A stretch of DNA of 51,538 bases from Candidatus Komeilibacteria bacterium S5_K13 (lineage in GTDB: Bacteria > Patescibacteriota > Patescibacteriia > UBA1558 > S5-K13), in contig JAEHGL010000003.1 in the NCBI GenBank assembly GCA_019248485.1, forward strand, positions 1-51,538. The letters run 5' to 3'. The notes under the pieces are model-generated. The model did not search any database. It was not told where the DNA came from and saw only the letters and a program-made list of their open reading frames with translations. Position 1 is the first letter of the stretch; each line of letters starts with the position of its first letter. The translations under genes and the position numbers were made by a program. Below are positions 31,386-51,538 of the stretch, piece by piece.

Positions 31386-31400
31386 AAAAACCAAAATCTA

Positions 31401-31628
31401 TTATTTATTTTTAAAATGACTTTTTATTTCTTGTATTGTCCATCTTTTTTGACTTTGCAATTTTTCTATTTCTTTGACTTTTTGAAGGGCTTTATTTTTT
31501 TCATACAAACGATACCCGCCTTGAGTATATGAGTCGGGCTTTAATAATCCCATCTGTGTATAAAAATGAATGGTCGAAGGTAACCTATTTAATTCAACTG
31601 CTAGCTCTCCTATTTTTAATAAGCTCAT
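31401..31628 (-). CDS. MerR-family HTH transcriptional regulator (DNA-binding domain only)
   Basis: LKIGELA...STIHFYTQMGLL.P...TQGGYRLY...IEKLQ...WTIQEIK. Confidence 0.9.
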   Translation of the reverse strand: MSLLKIGELAVELNRLPSTIHFYTQMGLLKPDSYTQGGYRLYEKNKALQKVKEIEKLQSQKRWTIQEIKSHFKNK

Positions 31629-32763: not shown

Positions 32764-32900
32764 GGAGGTTAGATGGTTAGGGTGGTTAGGGTGGTTAGAG
32801 TGGTTAGTGGGGTTAGAGTGGTTAGTGGGGTTAAAGTGGTTAGGGTGGCTGGGGTTTCTAACCTTTCTAACTTTTCTAACCTCACTAACCCTACCAGTCT
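32764..32900. repeat. 9-bp GGTTAG(G/A/T)NN array (about 10 units) followed by an inverted CTAAC arm (about 4 units)
   Basis: ggttag-type units at 32767, 32775, 32784, 32793, 32802, 32811, 32820, 32829, 32838 and 32847, then tttctaacc-type units. Confidence 0.9.
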
Positions 32901-36759: not shown

Positions 36760-36768
36760 CCCCTATCT

Positions 36769-36804
36769 CCCCTCACCCTACCCTCTCCCAAATCAGGGAG
36801 AGGG
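36769..36804 (+). repeat. C-rich REP-like palindrome, copy B
   Basis: cccctcaccctaccctctccc-aaatca-gggagaggg (9-bp stem); preceded by a partial arm at 36751-36770. Confidence 0.88.
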
Positions 36805-36828
36805 AATAAGGAATAATTATTTATATTG

Positions 36829-36865
36829 CCTCATCCCCAACCCTTCTCCCAAAACGGGATAAGGG
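36829..36865 (+). repeat. C-rich REP-like palindrome, copy C
   Basis: cctcatccccaa-cccttctccc-aaaac-gggataaggg. Confidence 0.82.
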
Positions 36866-36873
36866 AGAATGCT

Positions 36874-37227
36874 CTATTTTTTTATTAATTTTTTTATTTT
36901 GATTTCTATTTTTTTCAAAACCGACTTTAAATCATATTCAATATCTTCACTATTAATTCTTATAAATTTAATTCCTAAATCCTCTATATTTTTTTGCCTT
37001 TCTGCATCTTCTTTTATTTGCCTCAAATGAACTGGACCATCTATTTCAATTGCTAAATTTAGTTCGCTACAATAAAAATCTATTATATAACCACTAATCA
37101 AATGTTGTCTTCTAAATTTCAAATTTAAAAATTGCTTAGCTCTTAAACCTTCCCATATCATAGCCTCTGATATTGTTGGCTTTTTTCTAAATTCTCGAGC
37201 TATATATATTTTTTCTTGCTTTGTCAT
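36874..37227 (-). CDS. DUF559 / Vsr-like (PD-(D/E)xK) endonuclease
   Basis: AREFRKKPT.SEA.IW..LR..QF...KFRRQH.I..YIIDFYC...LAIEIDG.VH...D.ER...G..FIRI. Confidence 0.92.
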   Translation of the reverse strand: MTKQEKIYIAREFRKKPTISEAMIWEGLRAKQFLNLKFRRQHLISGYIIDFYCSELNLAIEIDGPVHLRQIKEDAERQKNIEDLGIKFIRINSEDIEYDLKSVLKKIEIKIKKLIKK

Positions 37228-37344: not shown

Positions 37345-40300
37345 TTAGTTATTATTTTTATTACTATTTCCGCTTGCTAAATCTCTTCTATAAACATATT
37401 CTACTGTAATCGTAAGCTGTGATGGGTCTTCACTTTCTTCTCCTCCGCTCGACACCTGAGTTACTGTCACATGCATTCCGTCTTCACTTGTTAGATTTAT
37501 ATTTAAATTATCTGACTCTATATTTGCATAACCATTTGAACAGTTTCCACCTGATATTGTTGCAAGCTCGCTATTGTTTTTGTCCTCTAATCGAAGCGAT
37601 ATGCTTCCCCCATCACCACATTTATACTGTGCTTTGAGTTTCAAAATCTTGATATCCTCTGCAGGTCTCCACGAGTTTTCACCATTTCCCCAAACGCGAG
37701 TATCAACACGTGGCACGTCAACATAAGCAGTTATAGTATCTCTTACTGCTGAGTCAGGCAATATATATGCGACTCCTTCTACATTTAAATCTACTGTATC
37801 TCCAGTTTTTCCAACCTGCAACTTGTTTCCATTTGCTGAGATTACACCGTCTGAGCTAAACATAAGTTCTGCAATACCAGATGGCGTTCCACTTGCATTG
37901 AGCGATGGTGAGATTACAACTCTTCCAAAAAAGTTCGCAGAGACGTTATCATCAGTCGCGACGACTGTCAAAGTGGTTGATGAAATATTTTGTGACATTG
38001 AAAAACTATCAAGAGCAACGTTTTGTGGGCTCATCAAAATATTTCCATTTCCGTTTACTGACATAATTCTCTGACCACCATTTTGAAGTACCCATAGGTC
38101 ATCATACTGGGCAACATTTCTATTGAAATCATTTAGGACAAGTGCATTTGACCCTACAACTTTTCCATAATTATCATGACTTGTTGTAAGTTTGGTGCCA
38201 TTTCCTAAATCAAAGCTTAAATTATTTCCTGAGTATAAATTATATGAAGATGTGATAAGTGAAACTGCATTTGTTGTATCAACATATTCTGATGAATTTA
38301 AAATATCTCCAGTAAGTGCTGTAGTTTTAATATCAGAATAATTTGAAGACAAACGAGAAGCAGAAATATCAATATGACTTAGCATTCTTGCAGAAGATGT
38401 TGCACTCCAATTTTCATCATACAAACTCCAATTTATAGCAATGTCAACATTTTTTGTTTCTATTGAGTTAAATTTCAAATCAACAAGTGACGCACTTGAT
38501 GTTGACCCAGTTGCTAAATTTTCATTATCAAATCCTGAAACAATCTTTATAGCTGATGAGCTTGCAGTAGCCATTGCAAAATCTGATTTATTATAATCTA
38601 TTAATACATTTGTTAGGTCAAAACTAAATTTATCAGAGTCAGTGCTTGACGCAGTAATTGTAATTACTTCTTGACCAATTTCATCGCCATAATTTGCAAT
38701 TGTCATATTTGAAACAGATGATTTGCTAGATGCTATTAATGCTGAATGATTAATCTGAGTAATTCTTGTATTTTCACGACCCGATCCAACGATATCAACA
38801 TAAGGTTTGAGAATAACTTGTTCATTATATATCCCTGGCTTTACAGTAATAAGCCAACGATTGTTTGCGCTGTTTAATTTTATCTTTGATAATGCCTCGC
38901 TAATACTTGTATAATCTCCGCCCTGTTTTGCAACTACAACTTCATTTTGTCTATCATTTGAAATAGCAAGTATTGAAGATTCATTTGTCTTTGCAACTGA
39001 TAATAAAACTTTGTTCTCATCACTTCTAATACTTGTTACAAGAATCTCACCATTTGAATCTATGTAAATATAATTTTCAACATTTGGTAAAAGCATAACT
39101 TGTCTAGCTGGTTTTGTTGAAACATAAACTCCATTTATATAAGCTTCGCCAGATGACAATGTTGCTACAAGTGAATTTTGAGTACTTGTTGATTCCAACA
39201 TAAATCCATCAATTACATAATGAGCAAGTTTGTTTCCATTTCCTGTGAAATCAATAAATGTTCCAAGATTTTCAAAGGTTTCAAATTTATCATTGGTGCT
39301 TAATAATTTTCCATTTTCACCAATATTTATATCAACTAATAATCCTTTGAAAATATTACCACTTGATGTAATGATTCCGTTTAGAGTTGCAATAGCTTGA
39401 CCCGAGACATTTTGGATATTATTGTTCATCACAATCATATCGTTGTCGGATGCAAAATTTACAATACCTTGATTCATTGAACCAATAAATTCATTTTCTG
39501 AAATTACAGGATTAATATTACTTGCTGTTGTATTTTCAATATTTATTCCCGTAGCACCACTCACCTCAGATATTATTCTATTGTTGTTTATCACTGGACT
39601 TGATCCTAAAATAGATACGACTGAGACATTGCTTACTGAGCCAGTTGACTTTAGAGAACAATTTTCAATTCTTGAATTGTTTGCACCTATTACTGCTGGT
39701 GCACTACTGCCAATAATTATTGTATTAGAACTATTTTCACAAACTACATCAACATAAGGCTTTAGAGTAATTGTTTCACTATATTCACCAGCTTTTATAT
39801 TTATTACATATCTCTTTGATTCACTACTGTCTGTAATTGATGACATAGCGCTTAAAATATTTTCAAAGTCTCCGCCTGATTTTGCGACTTCTATTGTTAT
39901 GCCATGATTATTGAAATATCCAATTTGAACACTAATTGCAATTTGATCATGACCACCTTCCATATCTTCCATTGCGATACCAATAACTCCTGCACCCAGC
40001 TTACTTGCTTTTTGTGCTTTTCCAATTTCATTTGAAGTAGTCAAATAATCACCCTTCTTGATAAGTCCATTTGAAGCTGTGACATTTACAAGACTTGCTC
40101 CCATTGTAACTATTGGCTTACCAGTCTCACTATTTCCAGAAATAAATGCAGGCTTCTCTGCTATTATTCCCAAAATATTTGAACTATTTGCGCGGTCAGA
40201 AAGTTTTACACTATTGCTATCACCGAGAACAACTACATCACCATACTCAAAGTTTGAGTCCGCAAGTTCCATCATCTGGGCATAACCTGAATTTGATGAT

Positions 40301-43300
40301 TTGAAAGATCCACTAGAATAAATATCGCCGATTACAAGTAAGTCACCCAAGAACTCTGCATTTCCTTTGACACTCAAAGTGCCATCTACAAACATATCTC
40401 CACCAACTCCAATATCACCCTTAACAAATAAATCGTCACCCGTCATATTGAACTCAGTCCATGACAATACTGGCACCTCTGCCCCTACTAATACATTGTC
40501 ACCAAAGTAAGATTTGCCACCAAGATTGTCAACAAAGATTGCCCAGTTGGTTGTAGATGCACTATTTAGATTTATGTATTGACCAATTTGAGTTCCAGCT
40601 TTTGAGTCACTAGCTGAGACAATATAAGATCCATAATTTACATCCACTGAATCAGATGTTTGAAGCTCTGTGTAATTTCCAAATGCTGTTTGAGCCTTTC
40701 CGTCTAGCGCTGTAGATAGTTTATTGTAAATTGAATATCCCGTTGCATTTTCTCCTGTTACGTAAATATCATTAAAATCGCCAAAGCCATAACTATCTAC
40801 ACTTTGAAGATTTACTTGATAAAGATTTCCTATTGAATCAGCGTTTCTAATAAAATCCCAAACATTTGTTTTGTAATCAGATCCTTTTAGCCTATTTATT
40901 TCATCTGCCAAAATTGCAACAGTATCACTTGTTTGATCGAGCGAATCATAAACAATATCCAACGAATTGTTTATAATACTTTCTGTAGTGCTTGCAAAAT
41001 TATAGTTTGAAATTGCACCTGAGATCATAATTGCAACCTCATCTTCCATTTCCATATTTGCAATTCTATCTGTAATTTGATTTTCAATTTGCTCCACTGT
41101 TAATGATTTGTTTCTTCTTGATATAAGCACATTTATAGATCCAGAATCAGAGCTAAGTGATTCAAGTGCAATACCAACTGTTGAATCACCTGGATTTGCT
41201 TTCATCAAATATCCAGACCGTGATGCTGATGTAAGCGAATCGCCTGGGTTTATATTTCCATTTTCATTTATAACATATGCAGGAATTTGACCAAGAAGAG
41301 CTATCATTTTATAGTTTGGATTGTTTTCATATTCTTCTTTCCCGTTTCCAAGCATTGCTGGTTTTGTTGAGACAATTCCAATAATATTTGTGTCACTTAA
41401 TCTTGTGCATCTTGCTACTGAATTGTTTCTGGTGACATCAATACAAACTGCTTCACCAGATACTAAATCAGTATTATTTGTGTAAAAATATTCTGCATAA
41501 TCAGCAGCGGGAGAGGTAAATGATCCATCTGCTGTGACATTTCCATCTGCTGTTACTTTAAAAATATTTGCTCCACCCCCTGACGTTGATGTTGAAATTG
41601 CAAACATAGCGACAGTAGGAGTTGATGTGGCATTATATATTTGCAAAAATGCACTTGGAGTAGTCGTGCCAACTCCTAACTTTCCATTTACTGTAATTGT
41701 TCCTGCGGTAGTTCCCGATAAATACGCAGTTGAATTAAAATATACATTATCACTATAAGTATTTAACCAATAAGCAGATGATGAGCCAAGATTATATGTG
41801 CTATCAGCATTTGTATACATATGATTACTTGTGACATTTCCACTTACTACCACTGATCCAGAAACCGTTCCACCAGATACTTGTAAATATCTATCATCAT
41901 GAGTATGAGTGGATGTAACTGCAAGTCCAATTTTTGTATCAATGTCTTCTAGTCGTAGATCAAGTGAAGCAAATATTCCATACGTAGCAGAACTCCTTGC
42001 TTGGATGACTTCTGTTTCAACAGTGTTTGACCCCTCACCCGCCCAAGTATCCCCATCAAAAGCAGTGACAGTAATTCCTTTTATAATAGGTGTAGTTCCA
42101 ACTCCTGCAGTCATCACGGCTTTTGCTTTTACTTGCTTTCCAATATTTGTAAACTCCCACAAAACATTTGGCGTGACAGGCCCCTCCCAATTGACTCCGT
42201 TATCAGCAGATAAATACCAATCTATGGCATTTCCAGTTCCGACAACACTATTATCAATTAATTTTGCACTTGTGATATCATTTGCTGAATTAATAATCAC
42301 GTTTGTTTCAAAAATACTACTCGTATCAAATATAAGTTGACTCTTATAAACATCTGCCAAACTATAAAAAGAAAAATAATAATATCCATTATAATAAAGT
42401 GGGGTCAAATTATATCCTGAACTTACACCCTCTCCCGTAACCTTAAAGTCACTTGATATAACAAAATAATCATCTACATTTAAATCATATACAAGATACC
42501 CCGAGGGAGACATACCAGCATATGATCCCAACCAAATTTGATTACCAATTTTTCTTATTGAAGTATATCTTGACGCCGTACTAATACCAAGTTCTTCATC
42601 TGTTCTATGAAACTCTTGCCAACCATTTGCTTTTGAAAGTTTTTGCCAAGAATTAGCGCCTGAAAGCCAAACAATATCTGAATCATCTGGATCTTGCCAA
42701 GAAGCATAAATCGTATTCGTATAATTGTATAATCCTTGAGGACCATTTGCATAATATCTTTTTGTAAGAGTATCTGTATCCATGTTCCAGATATAAAAAC
42801 CTGAAATATTAGAAATATACAATTCATTTCCATTGGCTATCACATCAGTATAATTAGTTTGTGGTAAACCACTAGCACTACCATAATCTGTAAATGTTCC
42901 ACTTGCTACATTAAAAACTTGCATATAATTTCCACTTGGAAATAAGTATACTTTATTATTATAATAATACATTACATTTCCGACGCCAGATCCTATAGAA
43001 TTAGATTTAAGACCGTGTGCTGTTGTATAAGTTGTTATTGTGTTTGCATCAACGTCTATTTTTACAAGTCCCGGCGCACCAGAATACATACCTACATAAA
43101 TATCATTTCTATCGTAATCATACGCTATGCTTGAAAAATTATTTATAGTAAGAGCTGGGACAGAGGTGGTATTCCATTGATTGGCAATGGACTCTGTATC
43201 AAGATCAAGCACTTTTACTCCATATCCATAAGTTGCCATATATAATTTATTTCCATAAATAATATTTCCCGACAAAGCTCTCATGCTATCACCATATCCA

Positions 43301-46300
43301 TAATTAATATCAATTTTTGATATAGGACTTAGATCGTTTTGTATTGTTCCTATTTGAGTATTGTATGCTGCTGTTGTATTTGATGTATTAACACTCGTAG
43401 CTGTTCTAAAATCATCAGAGAACAAAGACGCATTGCTCATTATAGAAGAATAGTTTGCTGTTATGGCGTTAAATCTGTCATTTAATGTGCTATAAGTGCT
43501 TCTTCCCTCCACCACCTCATCAACTCGATCTCCAGAAATATTTCCAAGAGAATCAACCACAGTAGTGTTTCCTACTGCAAATCCGTTTGAACTTGTAACT
43601 GTTCCTCCGACGCTTATACTTGTATTAAAATTCACTACAGTATCTGCCATTATCATCCCATCACCGTCAAATTGCATATTTCCGTTTACGACTAGTGCTT
43701 GTTGTGGAGTCGTGGTTCCTATTCCAAAATATCCGCCGTCTGTCATTACAAATTGCGCAACACCATTTCCACTAGGATTAAATGATAAATAATCATTAGT
43801 TGTGTCATAACCAAGTAGTGCATAATTTCCTGCTGTTCCAATATTTATACTATTTGGTCCGAGATATAAATCCTTCCATCTGTTGGTATCTGATCCAAGA
43901 GTATAAGTGTTATCTACTGACGGTAAAATATTTCCTGTAAATGTTGCAGTTCCACCAACTGACAAATTGCCAACCGTTGAAATATCACCTGTTAATGCAG
44001 TAATAGTTGCCACACCACCGACTGATAAATCACCTGAGAATAAAGAACTTCCAGATGACGAAATTTTTAATCCTGTATTTCCATAATAATAAGCATCATC
44101 ACCAGAATCATAAACAGCTATATAAGAGTCATTATCTTTATTTATTATTCCTATCTCATCATTTATGGCACCCGAACTCAAAGCTAAATTCCCCTGTGTA
44201 CCACTAACCATCACTTCGTTTGTAAACAAACCATTCCCAGATTGTGTGATAGTTGCGAATCCTCCAACTGATAAATTATTTGAGAATAATGAATTACTAT
44301 TTACTCCATCTACAAGCAAGGCCCCATTGCCATAAGTATAAGTATTATCTGTTAAATTCATCTCAGCTAAAATCTGATCTCCATTACCAGAATATAGACC
44401 AACCGTATTATCTCCATCATCCCAATAATCTCCTATATATAATCCGTCTGTACCTTCTGACATAATACCTACTATATTTCCAGTTGGACTGATTGTTAGA
44501 TTTCCAGATCCGTCTGTTTCAAACGTTGTATAGTTTAAAGAATCATAGCCCAGCGTAAATTGAGGTAAGGTTGAATTTATAACATGAAGTGCTGATGATG
44601 GAGTTGAAGTTCCTATTCCAACATATCCATTTGATGGATTTACATATAATTGATTTGTATTTACTGCAAAAGCACCAGCAACCGTAGTTGAAGCTAATGT
44701 ACTTGTACCTGTAACATTTAAATTTCCTTGTACTCCAAGATTTCCAGTTGTAGTTGCGTTTGTTATTTGTAAATTTTGTAAGTTGCTAGTTCCCGTTACA
44801 AATAAATTACTTGCCAAGGTGCTTGTTCCTCCATTTGGAGTGACACGCAAATCACCAGATGAATCTGTTCCAAATGTTGTGTATTTACTTCCATCATATG
44901 CTAACGTAAATTGTTGTGCTGATGTAGATGCTACGTGAAGAGTTGAAGATGGCGTTGTTGTGCCAATACCAATTGTTCCTGAGGCATGTACATAAAGTAA
45001 TGAATTATTATTATATTTAAAATTAAAATTATTTGATGCTAAATACATACCAATATTTGTAGATGGACTATCAAACCTTGATACTAAGGTTCCATATATC
45101 CCAGCAGAAGAACTAATCCCCGTACCACTTAACCAACCATTACTGGAAATACCATATGTAGAATTGGACTCTAAATACTTACCATTATCAAATACAAGCC
45201 TACTAATAGTTGTTGTGGCTAATGTACTAGTGCCACCAACACTTAAATTTCCTGATACTACTTGATTACCAGATGTCGTAGCGTTTCCTGAGACTGTTAA
45301 AGATGAAATTGTTGTCGTAGCTAAATTGGTGAGTCCTAATACTGCCAAGTTTCCAGTTGTAGTTGCATTTGTTACTTCTAGACTAGCTAATGTTGAAAGT
45401 CCTGAAACATTAAGTGCTGATCCAATATAATGAGATCCTGTTGTTGTTACGTTTCCATATAGTAGTGTTGTTCCATTTACTGTAAATGTTGACTCCGGCG
45501 TAGTAGTACCTATTCCGACATATCCAGAACTAATATTTACAGACACACCAGCATCATCATCATAACCAGCAAATTTATAAGCCGTTTGAGCTGTATTTAC
45601 GCCAACTATAAGCTCATCATTAGCGCCATAAAGCATTCCGACCTCTCCGCCTATATTATCATAACCTATTTTTATATTATTATATGTATCTCTATCACCA
45701 AAAATTCCACCATTAGCACGTAATTGACCTAAATATTGATCTGATGCATAAATATCCAATGCATATTGTGGGGTAGTTGTTCCTATTCCGACGTTGCCAG
45801 ATGAACTTTTAAAGGTAATAATCTCACCTATATCTCCCCAAAAAATAAAATCCCTATCAAGCCCCTCATCATTACCCAATGCATAAGCTCCTGGAGAATA
45901 AGTATCATAACCAAGAATTCCAAAACCACTATAATCCTTTAATGAGCCTGATATTCTTATACTACCGTTCACCTGCAATTTATCGTTTGGACTATCTGTT
46001 CCTATTCCTACATTTCCATTTACTGGATTTACATATAACTGATTTGTATTAACTGCAAAATTTCCTGCGATTGAGGTGCTCGCAAGTGTTGTATTTCCAG
46101 TCATTACCAAACTATTTGTTCCTGTTGCATTTGTAAATGCAAGATTTAATATTGTCGATGAACTAAAAGATGCTGAGCCATTTATTATTCCTGTTACTGT
46201 TAGGTCGCCTGTGATTGTTGTAGTTGCTAAATTGGTAAATCCTAATACTGCTAAGTTTCCAGTTGTTGTTGCATGTGCTACTTGTAGATTAGCTAATGTT

Positions 46301-49300
46301 GAAAGTCCTGATACATTAAGTGCGTCAGTTACTGCAAGGCTAGAAATAGTAGTTGTGGCGAGTGTACTAGTACCAACAACTGCTAGTGTTCCTGTAAAGT
46401 TTGCAAAGCTAGAAATTGTTTGACCATTTATAAGACCGGAAGTAATTGTTCCAATATTTACAAGATTACCACTTGCATCTATTCTTTGTGTTCCAGAGTC
46501 TGCTCCAGTATTTATTCCTGTTGTACCATTTAGTGTTGTTCCTGTAATTGTATTGTTTGTAAGTATGGTTCCAAATCCTGTATTGATAGATCCTGAATTT
46601 AATACTCCTACTCCAGTTAAAGATGAATTTACAATATTTGATGGCAGTGTTGTTGTGCTAAACCATGTTGATAATGATAAATACGTTGTAGAGGCTGTAG
46701 AGCTTAATAAGTATCCTGCACTTGCATGATTGCCCCATCCATATGCACTATCCCAATATGATGAAGATGCTGTAACTGTATTGTACGTAGTGTTCCATTG
46801 TGTTGAATTTCCACCAAGAGCAGAAATAATTCCCGTTGCATCAAATGTTCCTGCAACCGTTGTTGTGGCTAAACTTGTATTTCCAAGCACTACTAAGTTT
46901 GTTCCAGTAGCACTACCAAATGTAAAATTAGTAAATGTTGATGAACTACTAATAAATGATCCGTTGATAGTTCCACCTACCGTTAAGTTACCCGATACTA
47001 CTTGATTACCAGTTGTAGTTGCATCTCCTGAAATTGCAAGGGTGGCAATTGAAGTATCGGCCAACGTCGAAGTTCCGGTTACTACAAATGTATCATCCAC
47101 TACAACATCTCCTAAATTCGCAGCTGATAATACAAGATCCAAATCAAGATAAGAAGAATTCGTTTGAACATATAGTGATGAATCACTCTTTATATATGAC
47201 GCTGTGCTGTTTGTAAATATCAAATTGTTTGCAACTGCAACATCTCCAACAGCTTCAAATGATACAGGATTAAACATGCTAATTTGCATATCAGATATTC
47301 TCATTGCTTCACTACTTCCTGCCGTGATGCTTATTGTATCATCTTCATATCTATAAAATCCTGTATTAGGATCTCCTACAAATGCGATTGAAGGATTTGT
47401 CGAAGAACCATCACTCACTGTTAAAGTTCCTTCTACTACTGCATTACCACTTACATATATTTGAGTTGATGTTGCTACTCCGTCAATTGTAAGTCCTCCG
47501 CTTGAAAGTTGAAGTAAATCAGCATTTGCAGATAGTCCAATATTGTTTCCAGCTATTTGTACATTGCCCAATGTGCTTGTTCCTACGACTCTTAAATCGG
47601 AATATATGGTTGCGTTTCCAGATACTGCAAGTGTGCCACTTGCTGATAAATTTCCTAGTGTTGTAAGATTTCCGTTTGTAGTTGTTATGGTTGCAAAATT
47701 TCCAAGTGATAAAGAATTCCCTGTTTCATATATTGATGAATTTATTGTTGTAGTTGCAGTGTCATATCTTACTAAATAACCAGCAGTTCCAGATCCTGAT
47801 AATTTATTATTAAATATTAGCCAATCTGAATTTTGAAGTTGCCCAGTATTTACAGCTGATGCTATTGGCATATTAAAAGTATGCGTAAAACCAGATGAGA
47901 CAATATTGAAAATACTTCCACCAGTTCCCGTTGCAAAAGTTTGAGTAGAAGCTGTAAGACCATTCAAATTAACCAGCGCATTTCCTCCTACTATTGTAGA
48001 AGTTGATACCCATTGTGTAGAAGTTCCAGTAGATCTTAGTATCATATCGCTCGACCCCACACTGTCAGTAGAATCTTTGAGTGATCCCAATAAACTAAGT
48101 TCTGTGATTGATGTTGTAGCAAGTGTTGAAGTTCCAGAGACATTTAGATTTCCCAATACTACTTGATTGCCAGTTGTTGTTGAGTTTGTTACTTGCAAGT
48201 TTTGTAAGTTGCTAGTTCCTGTCACAAATAAATTACTTGAGAGAGTTGTGGTTCCACCATTTGGAGTGACTCTTAAATCACCACTAGCATCTGTTCCAAA
48301 TGTTGTATATTTTGTTCCGCTATATCCCAATGTAAATTGGGATCCTGATGTATTTACTAAATGAAGAGTTGAGGATGGTGCTGAAGTGCCAATACCCAAG
48401 TTACCAGCAATACTCATTAACATTTTTGTACTATTAGCAATCATAAAATTAATACTTCCATTTGGCGCGTTAAGATAAGTGTTTGTAGCTCTAGAAACTA
48501 ATGCATAATTACTTTGAGACGGAGTAACAGACGAACTCCAAATACTACCCCCGGTAGCATCATATTCACCGAAAATTAATCCTCCACCCGCCGAGCCTTT
48601 GATTCGTATTGGGTAATTATTTACACCAAGAATATCAAGTTTATATTCAGGGCTATTTGTTCCAACTCCGATATAACCACTCGTTGAACTTACATATAAT
48701 TGATCTGTATTAACACTAAAATTTCCTGCAATAGTTGTGCTAGCAAGTGTTGAAGTTCCAAAGACTCTTAATGTTCCACTTGCTGATATACTTCCCAAAG
48801 TTCCAAAATCTCCTATTGCAGTAATTGTTGATCGTCCTCCAATTCCTAAAACGCTACCATCTTCATATAATATTGAAGATGCAGATATTGTATTTGCATC
48901 AGACCATTTTGTTAAATAATTTGTTGTTCCTGTAATTCCTGTAAAGGCTCCTGTAGCATTTCCCTTTAACATTCCAGTAAGAGTTGTTGTTCCTGTTCCA
49001 CCGTATGCAACTGCAATAGTATTTCCATTCCAAGTCCCTGATGAAATAGTTCCAAGCGACAAATTTCCACCCAAACTAACATTACCCATTAATTCTATAA
49101 TTGGAGCTGTTAATGAAATTGTATTTCCTGCAACTTGTCTAATCATTGAATGCGCACCATTTGCAGTTAAGACAATATCTGAATAATCTACGCCAGTCAA
49201 AATTGATATATCACCACTTGAATTATTTACTAAATTCAAAGAGTATGGAGATCCACCGTTAGAAGGAACTGTAATATCAACACCGCTAACACCATCAACC

Positions 49301-51538
49301 TTTACAGTGCTTGACGATTGAACATATAAATTACCAGTTTCAGATATAAGCTTAAGATTACCAGATCCAGTTGTCTTAACATCCACATTTTGATTTATGT
49401 CTGTTGAAAAAGTTATTGTATTAGAATTATCTGAAATAACCTTTCGTCCATTTACATAAAGTGAATTTGGACCAACGTGCATTTCAGAAGTATATATGTC
49501 TTGAAATTGTGCATCTCTACTTCCCAACACTCTTACAGACACACTTGCAGTAGATCCTGTCATGTCTGGTATTAAATTACCAGCTAATGTTGTTGTTGCC
49601 AGCCTTGTATAACCTGTCATTACCAAACTATTTGTTCCTGTTGCATTTGCAAAAACCAAATTATCAATTGTAGATGATGTAAATAATCCTGTTCCAACGA
49701 CTGTTCCATTTATTGTTAATAATCCATTAATTGTTGTGCTAGCTAAATTTGTAAACCCTAATACTGCTAAGTCTCCAGTTGTAGTTGCATTACCATTTAC
49801 TATTAAACCAGTCGAGGTAACAACACCATTAATATTTAATCCGTTATTTGAAAGCGTTAAAAGATTTAGATTTCCTGATACTCCAATATTATTTCCTGAT
49901 ATTTGAACATTTCCTAATGTTGATATTCCATTAACTAATAAATTTGAAATAGTTGTAGATGCTAATGTAGTTGTTCCGTTTACCGTTAGGTCTCCTGAAA
50001 TTATTCCACCTCCTAGTCCTAGATACATTGAACTAGCTGTAGCTACTGTGAGGTAGCCTGCATCATTTGTCCATTGACTAATTGTTGATGTTGCAAAATG
50101 TGATACTTGAAGTGTTCCTGAAGCAAGAGTCCAAATTGGATCTGTTTCTGTATATGATGTTAAGTAGCCTGCAAGTGAATGATTGCCCCATCCATATGCA
50201 CTATCCCAATATGATGAAGATGCCGTAACTGCATTGTAAGTACTATTCCATTGTGTTGAATTTCCGCCAAATGCAGAGATAATTCCTGTTGCATCAAAGC
50301 TTCCTGCAACTGATGTGCTAGCTAAATTTGTGTTTCCAAGAACCGCTAAGTTTGTTCCAGTAGCACTGGCAAATATTAAATTAGTAAATGTTGAAGACGT
50401 GCTAACAAATGAACCGTTGATAGTGCCAGATACTGTTAAGTTACCCTCCACTACTTGATTGCCGGTTGTTGTTGCATTACCGTTTACTACCAATGCTCCA
50501 TTTACTGTTGTAGTTGCTAAATCAACAAAACCTAATACTGCAAGATTACCAGTTGTAGTTGCATTTGTAACTTGCAAATTAGCAAGAATTGAAAGTCCTG
50601 ATACATTTAATCCGTCTGTTACTGCAAGGCTAGAAATAGAGGTGCTAGCAAGTGTGCTAGTTCCTGATACTTCTAATAATCCTAAATTATATATTCCGGT
50701 TGAAGTAACGACGCCACTAATTGTCAAATTACTTGCCAAAGTGCTAGTTCCTGCAACATTGTTAATAACCAAATCACGGTTACCATAATAATATATACCC
50801 GCATTCGAATAACTGGCTATTACTTCATCACCAGCAGTACTATACAAGCCCATTTCATAAGGATAAGCAAAATAACCACTCATTAATATCATTTCATTAG
50901 AATAAAAAGCGTTAGCGCCAATATTACCGTTGGTAAAAATTAATCCAGATGTTGAATTAATATTTAATTGACCAGATGCGTCTGTTCCAAATGTTGTATA
51001 GCTTGCTTCACTATATCCTAATGTTAATTGCGTTGTTGAAGTTGATACCACATGAAGAGTTGATGATGGAGTCGTTGTTCCTATTCCAATGTTTCCAGTA
51101 TTGTAATAAATATCATTTCCCGAAGTCGTCCATTGAGATCCAATATACTTAGAACCATTTACATATAAATCTGTTGCATTTACAATACCGTTTACGTCAA
51201 AAGTAAAATTTGGAGATGTTGTTCCAATCCCCACTCTATTGTTTGTGCTATCCACAAACAATGTATCAGTGTCTACAACTAAATCACTTAGCAATGTCGT
51301 TGTCCCTGAAATATTTAGTGTTCCTACACTTGCAATGTTTCCATTACTTGCTGTGATGGTTGCATGTCCTCCGACTGATAAATCTCCTGTAAAGTTAGCT
51401 CCTGACAAAAGTGCATATCCTTTTGTCGAATGATCGCCCCATGAGTAAGCTGTGTTCCAATTTAAATAATTTGAATTTACAATATTTGAATTATTGTTCC
51501 AATATGTTGTTGATGCAGTAAGAGGAATATTGTAATCA
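37345..51538 (-). CDS. Giant (at least 4730 aa, 5'-truncated by the window) repetitive surface/fibre protein with phage tail-fibre-like repeats, beta-propeller, two peptidase-G2/IMC-like domains and two pectin-lyase-like beta-helices
   Basis: The frame stays open upstream of the TTG at 51408 to the window end (DYNIPLTAST...WNTAYSWGDHSTKGY). About 11 (V/I)GIGTTTP-type motifs, 3 W..AY.WG(N/D)H motifs, ADYAEYF and SGYAQMM domains, VAKSGGDF and VAKQGGDY motifs. Confidence 0.9.
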   Translation of the reverse strand, partial: DYNIPLTASTTYWNNNSNIVNSNYLNWNTAYSWGDHSTKGYALLSGANFTGDLSVGGHATITASNGNIASVGTLNISGTTTLLSDLVVDTDTLFVDSTNNRVGIGTTSPNFTFDVNGIVNATDLYVNGSKYIGSQWTTSGNDIYYNTGNIGIGTTTPSSTLHVVSTSTTQLTLGYSEASYTTFGTDASGQLNINSTSGLIFTNGNIGANAFYSNEMILMSGYFAYPYEMGLYSTAGDEVIASYSNAGIYYYGNRDLVINNVAGTSTLASNLTISGVVTSTGIYNLGLLEVSGTSTLASTSISSLAVTDGLNVSGLSILANLQVTNATTTGNLAVLGFVDLATTTVNGALVVNGNATTTGNQVVEGNLTVSGTINGSFVSTSSTFTNLIFASATGTNLAVLGNTNLASTSVAGSFDATGIISAFGGNSTQWNSTYNAVTASSSYWDSAYGWGNHSLAGYLTSYTETDPIWTLASGTLQVSHFATSTISQWTNDAGYLTVATASSMYLGLGGGIISGDLTVNGTTTLASTTISNLLVNGISTLGNVQISGNNIGVSGNLNLLTLSNNGLNINGVVTSTGLIVNGNATTTGDLAVLGFTNLASTTINGLLTINGTVVGTGLFTSSTIDNLVFANATGTNSLVMTGYTRLATTTLAGNLIPDMTGSTASVSVRVLGSRDAQFQDIYTSEMHVGPNSLYVNGRKVISDNSNTITFSTDINQNVDVKTTGSGNLKLISETGNLYVQSSSTVKVDGVSGVDITVPSNGGSPYSLNLVNNSSGDISILTGVDYSDIVLTANGAHSMIRQVAGNTISLTAPIIELMGNVSLGGNLSLGTISSGTWNGNTIAVAYGGTGTTTLTGMLKGNATGAFTGITGTTNYLTKWSDANTISASSILYEDGSVLGIGGRSTITAIGDFGTLGSISASGTLRVFGTSTLASTTIAGNFSVNTDQLYVSSTSGYIGVGTNSPEYKLDILGVNNYPIRIKGSAGGGLIFGEYDATGGSIWSSSVTPSQSNYALVSRATNTYLNAPNGSINFMIANSTKMLMSIAGNLGIGTSAPSSTLHLVNTSGSQFTLGYSGTKYTTFGTDASGDLRVTPNGGTTTLSSNLFVTGTSNLQNLQVTNSTTTGNQVVLGNLNVSGTSTLATTSITELSLLGSLKDSTDSVGSSDMILRSTGTSTQWVSTSTIVGGNALVNLNGLTASTQTFATGTGGSIFNIVSSGFTHTFNMPIASAVNTGQLQNSDWLIFNNKLSGSGTAGYLVRYDTATTTINSSIYETGNSLSLGNFATITTTNGNLTTLGNLSASGTLAVSGNATIYSDLRVVGTSTLGNVQIAGNNIGLSANADLLQLSSGGLTIDGVATSTQIYVSGNAVVEGTLTVSDGSSTNPSIAFVGDPNTGFYRYEDDTISITAGSSEAMRISDMQISMFNPVSFEAVGDVAVANNLIFTNSTASYIKSDSSLYVQTNSSYLDLDLVLSAANLGDVVVDDTFVVTGTSTLADTSIATLAISGDATTTGNQVVSGNLTVGGTINGSFISSSSTFTNFTFGSATGTNLVVLGNTSLATTTVAGTFDATGIISALGGNSTQWNTTYNTVTASSSYWDSAYGWGNHASAGYLLSSTASTTYLSLSTWFSTTTLPSNIVNSSLTGVGVLNSGSINTGFGTILTNNTITGTTLNGTTGINTGADSGTQRIDASGNLVNIGTITSGLINGQTISSFANFTGTLAVVGTSTLATTTISSLAVTDALNVSGLSTLANLQVAHATTTGNLAVLGFTNLATTTITGDLTVTGIINGSASFSSSTILNLAFTNATGTNSLVMTGNTTLASTSIAGNFAVNTNQLYVNPVNGNVGIGTDSPNDKLQVNGSIRISGSLKDYSGFGILGYDTYSPGAYALGNDEGLDRDFIFWGDIGEIITFKSSSGNVGIGTTTPQYALDIYASDQYLGQLRANGGIFGDRDTYNNIKIGYDNIGGEVGMLYGANDELIVGVNTAQTAYKFAGYDDDAGVSVNISSGYVGIGTTTPESTFTVNGTTLLYGNVTTTGSHYIGSALNVSGLSTLASLEVTNATTTGNLAVLGLTNLATTTISSLTVSGNATTSGNQVVSGNLSVGGTSTLATTTISRLVFDNGKYLESNSTYGISSNGWLSGTGISSSAGIYGTLVSRFDSPSTNIGMYLASNNFNFKYNNNSLLYVHASGTIGIGTTTPSSTLHVASTSAQQFTLAYDGSKYTTFGTDSSGDLRVTPNGGTSTLASNLFVTGTSNLQNLQITNATTTGNLGVQGNLNVTGTSTLASTTVAGAFAVNTNQLYVNPSNGYVGIGTSTPSSALHVINSTLPQFTLGYDSLNYTTFETDGSGNLTISPTGNIVGIMSEGTDGLYIGDYWDDGDNTVGLYSGNGDQILAEMNLTDNTYTYGNGALLVDGVNSNSLFSNNLSVGGFATITQSGNGLFTNEVMVSGTQGNLALSSGAINDEIGIINKDNDSYIAVYDSGDDAYYYGNTGLKISSSGSSLFSGDLSVGGVATITALTGDISTVGNLSVGGTATFTGNILPSVDNTYTLGSDTNRWKDLYLGPNSINIGTAGNYALLGYDTTNDYLSFNPSGNGVAQFVMTDGGYFGIGTTTPQQALVVNGNMQFDGDGMIMADTVVNFNTSISVGGTVTSSNGFAVGNTTVVDSLGNISGDRVDEVVEGRSTYSTLNDRFNAITANYSSIMSNASLFSDDFRTATSVNTSNTTAAYNTQIGTIQNDLSPISKIDINYGYGDSMRALSGNIIYGNKLYMATYGYGVKVLDLDTESIANQWNTTSVPALTINNFSSIAYDYDRNDIYVGMYSGAPGLVKIDVDANTITTYTTAHGLKSNSIGSGVGNVMYYYNNKVYLFPSGNYMQVFNVASGTFTDYGSASGLPQTNYTDVIANGNELYISNISGFYIWNMDTDTLTKRYYANGPQGLYNYTNTIYASWQDPDDSDIVWLSGANSWQKLSKANGWQEFHRTDEELGISTASRYTSIRKIGNQIWLGSYAGMSPSGYLVYDLNVDDYFVISSDFKVTGEGVSSGYNLTPLYYNGYYYFSFYSLADVYKSQLIFDTSSIFETNVIINSANDITSAKLIDNSVVGTGNAIDWYLSADNGVNWEGPVTPNVLWEFTNIGKQVKAKAVMTAGVGTTPIIKGITVTAFDGDTWAGEGSNTVETEVIQARSSATYGIFASLDLRLEDIDTKIGLAVTSTHTHDDRYLQVSGGTVSGSVVVSGNVTSNHMYTNADSTYNLGSSSAYWLNTYSDNVYFNSTAYLSGTTAGTITVNGKLGVGTTTPSAFLQIYNATSTPTVAMFAISTSTSGGGANIFKVTADGNVTADGSFTSPAADYAEYFYTNNTDLVSGEAVCIDVTRNNSVARCTRLSDTNIIGIVSTKPAMLGNGKEEYENNPNYKMIALLGQIPAYVINENGNINPGDSLTSASRSGYLMKANPGDSTVGIALESLSSDSGSINVLISRRNKSLTVEQIENQITDRIANMEMEDEVAIMISGAISNYNFASTTESIINNSLDIVYDSLDQTSDTVAILADEINRLKGSDYKTNVWDFIRNADSIGNLYQVNLQSVDSYGFGDFNDIYVTGENATGYSIYNKLSTALDGKAQTAFGNYTELQTSDSVDVNYGSYIVSASDSKAGTQIGQYINLNSASTTNWAIFVDNLGGKSYFGDNVLVGAEVPVLSWTEFNMTGDDLFVKGDIGVGGDMFVDGTLSVKGNAEFLGDLLVIGDIYSSGSFKSSNSGYAQMMELADSNFEYGDVVVLGDSNSVKLSDRANSSNILGIIAEKPAFISGNSETGKPIVTMGASLVNVTASNGLIKKGDYLTTSNEIGKAQKASKLGAGVIGIAMEDMEGGHDQIAISVQIGYFNNHGITIEVAKSGGDFENILSAMSSITDSSESKRYVINIKAGEYSETITLKPYVDVVCENSSNTIIIGSSAPAVIGANNSRIENCSLKSTGSVSNVSVVSILGSSPVINNNRIISEVSGATGINIENTTASNINPVISENEFIGSMNQGIVNFASDNDMIVMNNNIQNVSGQAIATLNGIITSSGNIFKGLLVDINIGENGKLLSTNDKFETFENLGTFIDFTGNGNKLAHYVIDGFMLESTSTQNSLVATLSSGEAYINGVYVSTKPARQVMLLPNVENYIYIDSNGEILVTSIRSDENKVLLSVAKTNESSILAISNDRQNEVVVAKQGGDYTSISEALSKIKLNSANNRWLITVKPGIYNEQVILKPYVDIVGSGRENTRITQINHSALIASSKSSVSNMTIANYGDEIGQEVITITASSTDSDKFSFDLTNVLIDYNKSDFAMATASSSAIKIVSGFDNENLATGSTSSASLVDLKFNSIETKNVDIAINWSLYDENWSATSSARMLSHIDISASRLSSNYSDIKTTALTGDILNSSEYVDTTNAVSLITSSYNLYSGNNLSFDLGNGTKLTTSHDNYGKVVGSNALVLNDFNRNVAQYDDLWVLQNGGQRIMSVNGNGNILMSPQNVALDSFSMSQNISSTTLTVVATDDNVSANFFGRVVISPSLNASGTPSGIAELMFSSDGVISANGNKLQVGKTGDTVDLNVEGVAYILPDSAVRDTITAYVDVPRVDTRVWGNGENSWRPAEDIKILKLKAQYKCGDGGSISLRLEDKNNSELATISGGNCSNGYANIESDNLNINLTSEDGMHVTVTQVSSGGEESEDPSQLTITVEYVYRRDLASGNSNKNNN

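What the first reader, a model, noticed from the sequence alone, without database searches (positions are those of the whole stretch)
37345..51538. Giant chromosomal protein assembled from phage tail-fibre parts with no prophage nearby
Seen: at least 4730 aa with about 11 GIGTTTP-type motifs, three W..AY.WG(N/D)H motifs (near 51430, 50180 and 46730), LGS...W..IY motifs, long T/S/N/G-rich beta-repeat shafts, a beta-propeller, two IMC-like domains and two parallel beta-helix heads. No capsid, terminase, integrase or sheath genes lie in the 51 kb. Established: these motifs and chaperone domains characterise trimeric phage fibres and spikes. Inference: a domesticated, very long trimeric fibre used by an episymbiotic CPR cell to find, bind or digest the surface of its host.
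Basis: partly seen in the sequence, partly recalled or inferred. Interest (0 to 1): 0.75.

Follow-up and report, generated by a model that had tools for sequence, protein, structure and literature searches.

The report
Giant membrane-anchored phage-fibre-like surface fibre
This is the last 4,730 residues of a roughly 6,000-7,000-residue cell-surface fibre of a tiny CPR/Patescibacteria bacterium, built from the same kinds of modules as phage tail fibres and the prey-recognition fibres of Bdellovibrio; it belongs to a large, apparently undescribed CPR protein family that is a strong candidate for how these bacteria grip other cells.

Summary
An open frame of 4,730 codons (window 37345-51537, minus strand) runs off the window end. 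It carries 11 real GIGTxxP motifs, 3 WxxAYxWG(N/D)H motifs and 3 LGS..W/F..Y motifs, all far above chance. No phage gene lies in the 51 kb.

Orthologues supply the missing 5' end. A 6,890-aa orthologue has two HTH_17-like domains, one transmembrane helix and a collagen-like GXY run before the shaft. In four relatives the gene sits beside smpB-infC-rpmI-rplT, not a prophage.

The shaft repeat is homologous to Bdellovibrio MAT fibres (E 2.6e-11) and hits tail-fibre PHROGs. The first "IMC" is a Peptidase_G2-type domain. It shares the fold of the phi29 gp12 autochaperone and keeps the Asp/Glu of the cleavage site, but lies 1,385 residues from the C-terminus. The second copy has lost both residues.

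This module marks a huge, almost purely Patescibacteria family: 19,086 clusters at E<=1e-10. Viral relatives are only about 30% identical. "Two beta-helix heads" rests only on a match to the pectinesterase N-terminal cap; no catalytic motifs are present and the AF2 model failed.

Verdict: a membrane-anchored trimeric adhesive fibre, a new variant of the MAT/phage-fibre kind. "Domesticated" is not shown.

The parts
37345..51537 (-). Giant ORF: 4,730 codons plus stop, with the 5' end cut by the window end
   Evidence: Translation has no internal stop. The sequence is 99.99-100% identical in two sister assemblies, and Logan contigs of a wastewater metagenome match without mismatches over most of it.
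43438..51537 (-). Mosaic beta-rich shaft (aa 1-2700). It carries 10 GxVGIGTxxP...L capping-loop-type motifs starting at window 51231, 51087, 48669, 48396, 46008, 45789, 45516, 44970, 44619 and 43725
   Evidence: Internal repeats and motif counts. A profile of the units hits Bdellovibrio MAT fibres 8OND (E 2.6e-11), 8OJN (2.3e-9), 8OML and 8OL4, and weakly MyRF (E 0.2). Tail-fibre/tail-spike PHROGs 9729, 9942, 18345, 1171 and 7121 are also hit.
51430..51459 (-). WNTAYSWGDH motif (aa 27-36). Sister motifs lie at 50179-50208 (aa 444) and 46726-46755 (aa 1595)
   Evidence: The aa 443-473 copy matches phrog_9729 'tail fiber protein' at E 3e-12 and a Synechococcus phage S-H9-1 ORF at 80% identity over 25 aa.
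43864..43899 (-). LGSDTNRWKDLY motif (aa 2547-2558). Others lie at 49492-49527 (aa 671) and 41755-41790 (aa 3250)
   Evidence: The region aa 2534-2565 gives a sub-threshold match to the end of Pfam End_tail_spike (18.5 bits), and aa 2382-2565 matches phrog_1171 tail spike. The aa 648-753 region is 39.6% identical to a Xanthomonas jumbo-phage tail-fibre-domain protein.
42325..43284 (-). Seven ~45-aa repeats (aa 2752-3071), possibly a 7-bladed beta-propeller insert
   Evidence: Manual repeat alignment. There is no Pfam or PDB sequence match, so the fold is unverified.
40858..41715 (-). Peptidase_G2-type IMC/trimerisation module 1 (aa 3275-3560): a GVGTTTP loop, a beta core, then three helices
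   Evidence: AF2 pLDDT 83, core >90. Foldseek best hits are phi29 gp12 3SUC/3GQH (E 1.6e-5 and 2.1e-5), followed by trimeric phage decoration proteins. BFVD gives 112 hits, best 2e-11. 22 of 29 family members hit PF11962.
41485..41505 (-). ADYAEYF (A3345-F3351): equivalent of the phi29 gp12 S691|D692 autocleavage site, with D3346 and E3349 retained
   Evidence: hhalign places it on gp12 SDFAEYF. D and E are conserved in >=90% of the 29 aligned homologues.
39910..40470 (-). Degenerate G2-like module 2 (aa 3690-3876). It reads SGYAQMM instead of ADYAEYF and has no helical tail
   Evidence: 33% identical to module 1 and 28% in alignment A1. Sub-threshold Pfam Peptidase_G2 (21.6 bits) and XM1_gp53 (24.8 bits) matches.
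38953..39894 (-). Head 1 (aa 3882-4195), putative right-handed beta-helix
   Evidence: Paralogous to the start of head 2 (39% over 79 aa). It is the second stretch of the Pfam Pectinesterase hit. The AF2 model reaches only pLDDT 50-77 locally.
37858..38940 (-). Head 2 (aa 4200-4560). Its N-terminal ~100 aa are homologous to the CE8 pectinesterase beta-helix cap
   Evidence: Pfam PF01095 E 4.8e-14, 52 bits, profile positions 2-97 of 298 only. PDB 1GQ8 by profile, E 3.6e-11. No QDT, DFIFG or GRPW motifs.
37348..37857 (-). C-terminal ~170-aa all-beta domain (aa 4561-4730) with two Cys, the presumed distal tip
   Evidence: 92-100% identical to the 6,890-aa orthologue. AF2 predicts strands at pLDDT ~60. 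Foldseek gives only weak jelly-roll, CBM or TNF-like matches, so the fold is not established.

Best explanation
The ORF is the distal two-thirds of a single-pass, membrane-anchored, homotrimeric cell-surface fibre of a Patescibacteria (CPR) bacterium.

Architecture, reading from the cell outwards. The first three elements are inferred from orthologues because the window lacks them:
- one or two cytoplasmic HTH_17-like domains;
- a signal-anchor transmembrane helix;
- a ~40-residue collagen-like GXY segment that sets a three-chain register;
- thousands of residues of mosaic beta-rich shaft, whose repeat unit carries the GxVGIGTxxP...L 'capping loop' of MAT- and S74-type trimeric beta-helical fibres;
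- a propeller-like insert;
- a Peptidase_G2-type intramolecular-chaperone domain plus helices, which nucleates or locks trimerisation from the far end and may self-cleave at A3345|D3346;
- a conserved tip, made of a degenerate second G2 domain, two beta-helix-like heads and a beta-rich end domain.

Proposed function: the tip binds a surface glycan or polymer of another cell, and the fibre gives the cell a reach on the order of 100-250 nm.

What is shown: the sequence anatomy, the homologies, the chromosomal synteny and the size of the family. What is inferred: trimer state, surface exposure, cleavage and host binding.
For: Anatomy and motifs.

N-terminal anchor in positional orthologues:
- L001 ORF of 3,729 aa;
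- P0121 and P0122;
- P0200, a 6,890-aa orthologue on a 305-kb contig, 80-94% identical in the tip.
All of these have one hydrophobic helix with positive charge on its N-side and a collagen run (Pfam and PDB collagen hits).

Synteny of both flanks in relatives, without phage genes.

Shaft unit homologous to solved Bdellovibrio MAT trimers. These fibres are surface-displayed and glycan-binding according to PMC10769870.

G2 module:
- fold equals the phi29 gp12 autochaperone and trimeric decoration proteins;
- the cleavage-site Asp and Glu are conserved;
- such C-terminal domains are needed for trimer folding (PMC3357383).

Family context:
- 155 hits, almost all Patescibacteria, with variable tips. 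30 of 108 end in the FGE/C-type-lectin-like GFRCAK ending.
- 19,086 clusters at E<=1e-10.
- The same architecture occurs in a closed Nealsonbacteria genome.

The tip is far more conserved than the shaft, as expected if the tip carries the specific function.
Against: - Nothing here shows expression; no RNA run holds the sequence.
- The trimer state was not modelled.
- The AF2 model of the tip is unusable (pLDDT 39), so the fold and any ligand site of the business end are unknown.
- The window's own G2 copies do not reach the Pfam threshold, and the hhalign probability to gp12 is only 28%.
- If the G2 domain does self-cleave, the tip would be severed from the anchored shaft, which sits badly with a tethered adhesin.
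- The window lacks the N-terminus, and the region at its end has doubled k-mer depth, so the intactness of this particular copy is not proven.
- Host association of this organism is assumed from its phylum, not shown.
Confidence: 0.6

Rival explanations
1. Released-tip model. The G2 domain self-cleaves at A3345|D3346 after trimer folding. The 1,385-residue C-terminal trimer (helical bundle, second G2 domain, two heads, end domain) is then shed as a soluble glycan-binding or glycan-degrading factor. The anchored shaft is mainly an assembly scaffold or a separate structure.
For: The Asp and Glu of the phi29 gp12 cleavage site are conserved in module 1 and in >=90% of homologues. In phi29 the domain after this site is cleaved off (PMC3357383). 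The module always lies 152-1,768 residues from the C-terminus, never at the end, so cleavage would always release a substantial product. The heads share a beta-helix cap with carbohydrate esterases.
Against: No catalytic motifs are present in the heads. Many family members end in C-type-lectin/FGE-like binding domains, which make more sense at the end of a tether. Non-cleaving IMC-like trimerisation domains are known, for example P22 tailspike and trimeric autotransporters. Cleaved products can also stay attached non-covalently.
Confidence: 0.15
2. General envelope or spacing fibre. The protein is a structural surface fibril, comparable to an S-layer-associated or biofilm/particle-attachment fibre, with no specific host-recognition role.
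For: The tip is highly conserved between orthologues (72-94%) rather than diversified as receptor-binding tips often are. Neighbouring genes include other large lectin-like surface proteins and many glycosyltransferases.
Against: The closest characterised relatives of the shaft are prey-recognition fibres and phage receptor-binding fibres. The family shows tip swapping, including DGR-target-like lectin tips.
Confidence: 0.15
3. Phage or prophage tail fibre, either current or a recently decayed remnant.
For: Motif-level and fold-level similarity to tail-fibre, tail-spike and pre-neck-appendage proteins.
Against: There are no phage genes in the 51 kb or upstream in four syntenic relatives. The orthologue N-terminus is HTH plus a TM anchor, not a virion-attachment domain. 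Only 7 of 50,697 GenBank phage records show even a short patch, and IMG/VR relatives of the G2 module are only 30% identical.
Confidence: 0.03
4. Assembly artefact or pseudogene. The giant frame is a chimera of collapsed repeats, or is broken just outside the window.
For: All three sister assemblies break in this gene. K-mer depth doubles at window 51091-51538. A gene call in the source record starts at the TTG at 51408.
Against: 14.2 kb are read without a stop. The sequence is identical in independent assemblies. An intact 6,890-aa orthologue lies inside a 305-kb contig, and a 3,729-aa one inside a 130-kb scaffold.
Confidence: 0.05

Closest known systems
Bdellovibrio bacteriovorus MAT (mosaic adhesive trimer) fibres, e.g. 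Bd2133, Bd3182, Bd2439 (Caulton et al. 2024, PMC10769870; PDB 8OND, 8OJN, 8OML, 8OL4)
   Same: - Chromosomally encoded phage-tail-fibre-like fibres of a bacterium that attacks or attaches to other bacteria.
- The same repeated GxVGIGTxxP...L capping-loop unit (profile hit E 2.6e-11).
- A mosaic shaft with exchangeable C-terminal tips, including lectin-like ones in the wider family.
- An intramolecular-chaperone domain in some members.
   Different: - Size: about 6-7 times longer (>=4,730 aa here and 6,890 aa in an orthologue, against ~1,000 aa).
- Anchor: HTH plus TM helix plus collagen run, instead of a signal peptide plus a conserved 130-aa beta-rich domain.
- Chaperone: Peptidase_G2 type and internal, not S74 and terminal. 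There is no SDxxxK motif.
- Host: a monoderm-like CPR cell rather than a Gram-negative predator.
- Evidence: no experimental data exist for this protein.
Bacillus phage phi29 gp12 pre-neck appendage, whose C-terminal autochaperone defines MEROPS/Pfam Peptidase_G2 (PF11962; PDB 3SUC, 3GQH)
   Same: It is the best structural match of module 1. The ADYAEYF motif aligns on the gp12 SDFAEYF cleavage site with Asp and Glu retained. The role of this domain in trimer folding is established for gp12.
   Different: In gp12 the domain is the last ~160 residues and is discarded. Here 1,385 residues follow it, including a second, catalytically dead copy. The P1 residue is Ala, not Ser. Sequence similarity is below the Pfam threshold for the window's copies.
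Phage tail fibres and tailspikes with S74 IMC (T5 pb1, K1F endosialidase) and eukaryotic MyRF
   Same: They share the LGS..W..Y and capping-loop motifs of the stalk preceding the chaperone. The supporting matches are weak: End_tail_spike and phrog_1171 and MyRF at E 0.2.
   Different: There is no S74 domain or SDxxxK dyad. The protein is not part of a virion.
Diversity-generating-retroelement target proteins of CPR with a C-terminal C-type-lectin/FGE fold
   Same: Thirty of 108 family members end in the FGE/CLec-like ...GFRCAK sequence, and some carry a precomputed PF03781 hit. So the same shaft-plus-G2 chassis carries such tips in other genomes.
   Different: The window protein has beta-helix-like heads instead. 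No reverse transcriptase or template repeat was seen in the window.
CE8 pectinesterase / pectin-lyase-like right-handed beta-helix
   Same: The N-terminal cap and first rungs of head 2, and more weakly of head 1, are homologous (Pfam 52 bits; PDB 1GQ8 at E 3.6e-11).
   Different: Only profile positions 2-97 of 298 match. The catalytic QDT, DFIFG and GRPW motifs are absent.

Membership tests
Bdellovibrio-type MAT fibre | Trimeric beta-helical shaft with the repeated capping-loop motif (V-G-G/N-pi-x-x-P-x-x-x-L) | tested here: met
   A profile of 11 internal units hits five solved MAT proteins: 8OND 2.6e-11, 8OJN 2.3e-9, 8OML 5.8e-5, 8OL4 1.7e-3 and 8ON4 0.05. The trimer state itself was not tested.
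Bdellovibrio-type MAT fibre | Signal peptide followed by the conserved ~130-aa beta-rich N-terminal domain | tested here: not met
   The window lacks the N-terminus. Positional orthologues instead have HTH_17-like domain(s), a TM helix and a collagen run.
Bdellovibrio-type MAT fibre | C-terminal S74 chaperone/protease, or an independently folding adhesive tip | tested here: inconclusive
   There is no S74 domain or SDxxxK motif. A distinct tip exists, but its fold could not be modelled.
Bdellovibrio-type MAT fibre | Display on the cell surface and binding of prey glycans | not testable with these tools
   Needs microscopy and binding assays.
Peptidase_G2 IMC autoproteolytic domain (PF11962) | Match to the Pfam model at or above the gathering score | tested here: not met
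   Module 1 gives no hit at E<=0.01. Module 2 scores 21.6 bits against a cut-off of 25. However, 22 of 29 aligned homologues match, best 8.2e-10.
Peptidase_G2 IMC autoproteolytic domain (PF11962) | Fold of the gp12 C-terminal autochaperone | tested here: met
   The AF2 model (pLDDT 83) has 3SUC and 3GQH as best PDB matches, E 1.6e-5 and 2.1e-5, TM 0.54 on the target. BFVD hits include pre-neck appendage and 'Peptidase G2 IMC' proteins.
Peptidase_G2 IMC autoproteolytic domain (PF11962) | Asp and Glu at the scissile S|D-x-x-E site | tested here: met
   Module 1: A3345|D3346...E3349 aligns on gp12 S691|D692...E695 and is conserved in >=90% of homologues. Module 2 has G and Q instead, so it does not meet this feature.
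Peptidase_G2 IMC autoproteolytic domain (PF11962) | Located at the extreme C-terminus and removed on maturation | tested here: not met
   1,385 residues follow the site here. In 108 homologues 152-1,768 residues follow, median 555. Cleavage itself is not testable here.
Phage tail fibre / tailspike (virion protein) | Encoded within a phage or prophage structural module | tested here: not met
   for the window. for both flanks in relatives.
Phage tail fibre / tailspike (virion protein) | Sequence membership of phage tail-fibre families | tested here: inconclusive
   Shaft segments hit PHROGs annotated tail fibre or tail spike (3e-12 to 4e-4), but only over 30-180 residues each. The tip hits none. 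tblastn against 50,697 phages gives 7 records with short patches.
CE8 pectinesterase | PF01095 above the gathering score over the catalytic beta-helix | tested here: inconclusive
   52 bits against a cut-off of 27, but only profile positions 2-97 of 298 are covered. The same holds for the profile against PDB.
CE8 pectinesterase | Catalytic motifs Q-D-T, D-F-I-F-G and (L)G-R-P-W | tested here: not met
   None occurs anywhere in the protein.
Trimeric autotransporter adhesin | C-terminal YadA-like membrane anchor, with head and stalk repeats | tested here: not met
   There are no such Pfam hits. In orthologues the anchor is N-terminal.

The most novel reading that the evidence does not exclude
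The protein, and the family's HTH-TM N-terminal module in general, may be a contact sensor. In this reading a membrane-tethered DNA-binding domain, arranged like ToxR or CadC, is wired to a fibre hundreds of nanometres long. Binding at the tip, or G2-type self-cleavage, would then change what the cytoplasmic HTH_17-like domain does. That would couple host contact directly to gene regulation in bacteria that have very few conventional signalling systems.

The evidence does not exclude this. The HTH domains are strongly conserved (35 invariant positions within the first 61 residues of five orthologues). They lie on the cytoplasmic side of the only TM helix. They recur at the start of large surface proteins in 76 loci found in the GTDB genome collection, most of them labelled Patescibacteria.
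Probability: 0.12. Interest if true: 0.85.

Novelty: new variant of a known kind. Interest (0 to 1): 0.6.

Why it matters
How CPR/Patescibacteria find and hold their host cells is largely unknown beyond type IV pili (abstract of PMC12206443, seen).

This gene is a well-preserved example of a very large, essentially CPR-specific family:
- 1,335 clusters at E<=1e-30 and 19,086 at E<=1e-10 among 1.84 billion representative proteins.
- The family shares one chassis: HTH-TM anchor, MAT/phage-like trimeric shaft, internal G2 chaperone domain and exchangeable tip.
- NCBIfam has no model for it, and I found no description of it in the searchable literature.

If these are host-recognition fibres, their tips would be direct, sequence-readable predictors of host range for uncultivated CPR, much as receptor-binding proteins are for phages.

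The internal, apparently catalytically competent G2 domain raises a testable question about maturation: does a cell-anchored fibre cut off its own tip? The N-terminal HTH raises a second question, whether the fibre signals to the cytoplasm.

Tried and rejected
- Pfam and PHROGs on the whole protein gave almost nothing. Splitting it into 10 segments was needed.
- The homologue search with the full 4,730 aa timed out.
- phmmer of aa 1-1300 and of aa 2700-3200 against the PDB found nothing. Only profiles worked.
- AF2 of the tip (aa 3690-4730, 13-row alignment) gave pLDDT 39. Its Foldseek hits are not significant and were not used.
- A homologue search with the heads alone found only ~100-aa matches to the beta-helix cap in Chloroflexi-type proteins.
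- No RNA-seq run holds the sequence.
- Attempts to read the 4.66 kb of the source contig beyond the window end failed. The 4,687-aa call is not on record for look-up, P0200 is too long for the tool, and the neighbour look-ups either had flanks too short to reach that far or did not return that contig at all.
- NCBIfam found nothing useful.
- The prophage tail fibre reading was considered and rejected on context and anchor.
- The active pectinesterase reading was considered and rejected because the catalytic motifs are absent.
- Trimeric autotransporter and S74-type IMC were considered and rejected because their domains are absent.
Full report
**1. What is in the sequence**

On the minus strand, window 37345-51537 translates to 4,730 residues plus a stop. 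There is no stop codon upstream, so the N-terminus is missing at the window end.

The composition is extreme. S+T+G+N make up 45% of residues and there are only six Cys.

- 12 matches to G[IV]GTx(1-3)P. One of them (aa 3145) is in an unrelated context, which leaves 11.
- 3 WxxAYxWG[ND]H motifs at aa 27, 444 and 1595.
- 3 LGS..[WF]..Y motifs at aa 671, 2547 and 3250.
- 4 YxTF[GE]TDxSG motifs.

Composition-preserving shuffles give expected counts of 0.037, 0, 0.13 and 0.

Residues 1-2600 are a mosaic of repeated modules, with up to 82% identity between copies. Two further paralogous pairs lie near the C-terminus: aa 3372-3476 with 3775-3876, and aa 3882-3980 with 4200-4298.

**2. Context**

The other 29 ORFs of at least 100 aa that were scanned are ordinary cellular genes, almost all on the same strand. 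They include:
- a DUF559 endonuclease-like gene;
- a 1,286-aa protein with four LamG domains and DUF2341;
- a class I aminoacyl-tRNA synthetase, RecO, a DUF11 surface protein, TGT, L25 and PfkB;
- Pta, AckA, PFOR subunits and GAPDH;
- glycosyltransferases and a Wzy-like protein.

There are no tRNAs and no phage genes.

The same DNA, 99.99-100% identical, occurs in two sister assemblies whose contigs also break inside this gene.

The source contig appears to be GCA_019248045.1 JAEHHI010000007.1 (56,977 bp). It extends about 4.66 kb beyond the window end, but I could not read that part.

The only run found to hold the sequence is a wastewater metagenome. Its contigs agree with the window, and k-mer depth doubles at 51091-51538. 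That fits a repeat that breaks assemblies.

**3. The missing 5' end, from orthologues**

The best homologue of the C-terminal third, P0001, is 73% identical. It lies in a 130-kb scaffold with the same downstream genes (172-aa ORF, MerR-like ORF, aaRS, RecO, DUF11, TGT, L25, PfkB). Read across an N-gap, its true ORF is 3,729 aa and begins with:
- an HTH;
- one hydrophobic helix;
- a collagen-like run (GKKGDKGDRGSKGDKGDIGPSGPQGPSGPPG...).

The exhaustive profile search returned P0200, a 6,890-aa protein on a 305-kb contig. It is 80-94% identical to the window protein over the tip but only 30-67% over the shaft. Its N-terminus has:
- two HTH_17-like domains;
- a TM helix at aa 238-256, with the positive charges on the N-side;
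- a GXY run at aa 476-517.

P0121 and P0122 show the same N-terminal arrangement.

In L001, L004, L007 and L008 the 10 kb upstream are syntenic: MacB/ABC/RND exporter, MazE-like gene, L20, L35, IF3 and SmpB.

The HTH-TM module heads large proteins in 76 loci found in the GTDB genome collection. Most are labelled Patescibacteria. The closest relatives carry implausible 'uncultured Gammaproteobacteria' TPA labels. A closed Nealsonbacteria genome has a 2,337-aa HTH-TM-fibre-G2-like ORF.

**4. The shaft**

A profile of the 11 internal GIGTxxP units finds solved structures of only one protein family with significance, the Bdellovibrio MAT fibres: 8OND Bd2133 at 2.6e-11, 8OJN at 2.3e-9, and also 8OML, 8OL4 and 8ON4. 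MyRF follows at E 0.2.

According to PMC10769870, MAT proteins have these properties:
- they are ~1,000-aa surface-displayed 'mosaic adhesive trimers';
- their beta-helical shaft carries capping loops of consensus V-G-G/N-pi-x-x-P-x-x-x-L;
- their tips are swappable (S74 chaperone, beta-sandwich, TNF-like or C-type lectin);
- one of them binds prey glycans.

Shaft segments also hit PHROGs annotated as tail fibre or tail spike:
- phrog_9729 at 3e-12, on the W-motif region;
- phrog_9942, phrog_18345, phrog_1171 and phrog_7121.

tblastn against 50,697 GenBank phages found only seven records, each with a short patch. Examples are a Xanthomonas jumbo-phage tail-fibre-domain protein (39.6% over aa 648-753) and a cyanophage virion protein.

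So the phage-type motifs are real. At sequence level the resemblance to phage proteins is limited to short modules.

**5. The 'IMC-like' domains**

The roughly 250-aa stretch around ADYAEYF is the most conserved part of the protein. 155 database proteins match it at 40-63% identity. They are almost all Patescibacteria, 850-2,700 aa long, and have very different architectures.

Of the 120 listed, 108 carry the motif:
- it always lies 152-1,768 residues from the C-terminus (median 555);
- 30 of them end in the FGE/C-type-lectin-like GFRCAK ending.

Twenty-two of 29 aligned members hit Pfam Peptidase_G2. The window's own copies stay below threshold.

An AF2 model of aa 3275-3560 is confident (pLDDT 83, core above 90). 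Its structural matches are:
- phi29 gp12 as best PDB match (3SUC at 1.6e-5; 3GQH, the cleaved autochaperone, at 2.1e-5);
- then trimeric phage decoration proteins; all 50 top PDB hits are viral;
- in BFVD, 112 hits, best 2e-11. These include pre-neck appendage proteins, a 'Peptidase G2 IMC' protein of cyanophage S-SM2 and chlorovirus proteins.

The sequence profile also hits a 1,343-aa chain of PDB 8H2I at 4e-10, and weakly a tailspike 'chaperon domain'.

hhalign places the window's AADYAEYF on gp12's WSDFAEYF. This is the Ser691|Asp692 position, which I recall from the gp12 literature as the autocleavage site. Asp3346 and Glu3349 are retained, and they are conserved in at least 90% of homologues. 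The alignment probability is low (28%), but it agrees with the fold match.

The second copy (aa ~3690-3876) reads SGYAQMM, has lost both residues, and lacks the helical tail.

IMC domains of this kind are needed for trimer folding. They may be cleaved (phi29, K1F) or retained (P22, trimeric autotransporters) (PMC3357383).

In IMG/VR only six loci encode a relative, at 30% identity.

**6. The tip**

Head 2, and more weakly head 1, match the first ~100 residues of CE8 pectinesterase:
- Pfam 52 bits, profile positions 2-97 of 298;
- PDB 1GQ8 at 3.6e-11 by profile.

None of the catalytic motifs is present. Outside the orthologues, only this cap has homologues.

AF2 failed on the tip (pLDDT 39) and Foldseek gave nothing significant. 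The propeller at aa 2752-3071 is a plausible seven-repeat pattern and nothing more.

**7. Interpretation**

The best-supported reading is a membrane-anchored, homotrimeric surface fibre. Four independent features point to a trimer:
- the collagen run;
- the MAT-type shaft;
- the G2 autochaperone fold;
- the helices that follow the G2 domain.

The solved Bd2133 fragment measures about 0.4 Å per residue (142-150 Å for 370 residues). On that scale the fibre would reach on the order of 100-250 nm, which is a rough inference.

The function is inferred to be adhesion to another cell's surface. This rests on analogy with MAT and phage fibres and on the lectin-type tips of relatives.

Whether the G2 domain severs the tip is open. 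That is the main rival mechanism.

'Domesticated phage fibre' is not supported as stated. The module set is shared with phages, but the nearest relatives form a vast cellular CPR clade. The direction of transfer cannot be read from these data.

**8. Novelty**

The kind is known: bacterial, phage-fibre-like adhesive trimers.

This variant differs in four respects:
- its size;
- its HTH-TM-collagen anchor;
- its internal G2 module;
- its CPR host.

I found no description of it in the searchable literature, and NCBIfam has no model for it.

Noticed in passing
window 32899-37227 (- strand): A DUF559 (Vsr-like endonuclease) gene and a 1,286-aa protein with four LamG domains and DUF2341 lie between the giant gene and the conserved 172-aa ORF. 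Both are absent from the syntenic locus L001, so this looks like an insertion of a second large surface-protein gene. In sister assembly GCA_019248545.1 the LamG gene is called as two pieces (866 + 430 aa), which suggests a frameshift difference.
   Followed up: partly
window 31400-31627 (- strand); L001:18808-19038: A small 75-aa MerR/HTH ORF is conserved just downstream of the fibre locus in the window lineage and in L001. This is notable because the fibre itself starts with HTH_17-like (MerR-superfamily) domains in orthologues.
   Followed up: no
window 51091-51538: K-mer depth of the Logan contigs doubles here (14.2 against ~5-7). All three sister assemblies break within the gene, so a near-identical repeat further upstream probably causes the assembly breaks.
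   Followed up: partly
P0200 (L007), aa 743-1007 and 1167-1431: The 6,890-aa orthologue contains an exact 265-residue internal duplication in its shaft. It is either a very recent duplication or an assembly artefact. Shaft length clearly varies between relatives (3,729, 6,890 and >=4,730 aa).
   Followed up: partly
L007, L008, L010-L013 record titles: The closest relatives of this locus are deposited as 'uncultured Gammaproteobacteria bacterium' (TPA_asm MAGs). Their gene content, synteny and homologues point to Patescibacteria, so the labels look wrong.
   Followed up: no
homologues P0002, P0014, P0018, P0019, P0026, P0054, P0110 (C-termini): Many family members carry a conserved linker after the G2 module and then an FGE/C-type-lectin-like domain ending in GFRCAK. 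That fold is typical of diversity-generating-retroelement targets. Whether DGRs sit next to those genes was not checked.
   Followed up: no
window 25500-27479 (- strand): A 659-aa DUF11/CLIPPER-repeat surface protein sits between recO and tgt. It is conserved at that position in L001, so it is another conserved surface protein embedded among housekeeping genes.
   Followed up: no
window 41611-43032: Logan contigs of run X1 cover this stretch (the propeller-like region) only at depth 0.5-1. Several contigs end here with unrelated sequence (loose ends at 42268, 42366 and 43067). This may reflect strain variation or low coverage.
   Followed up: no
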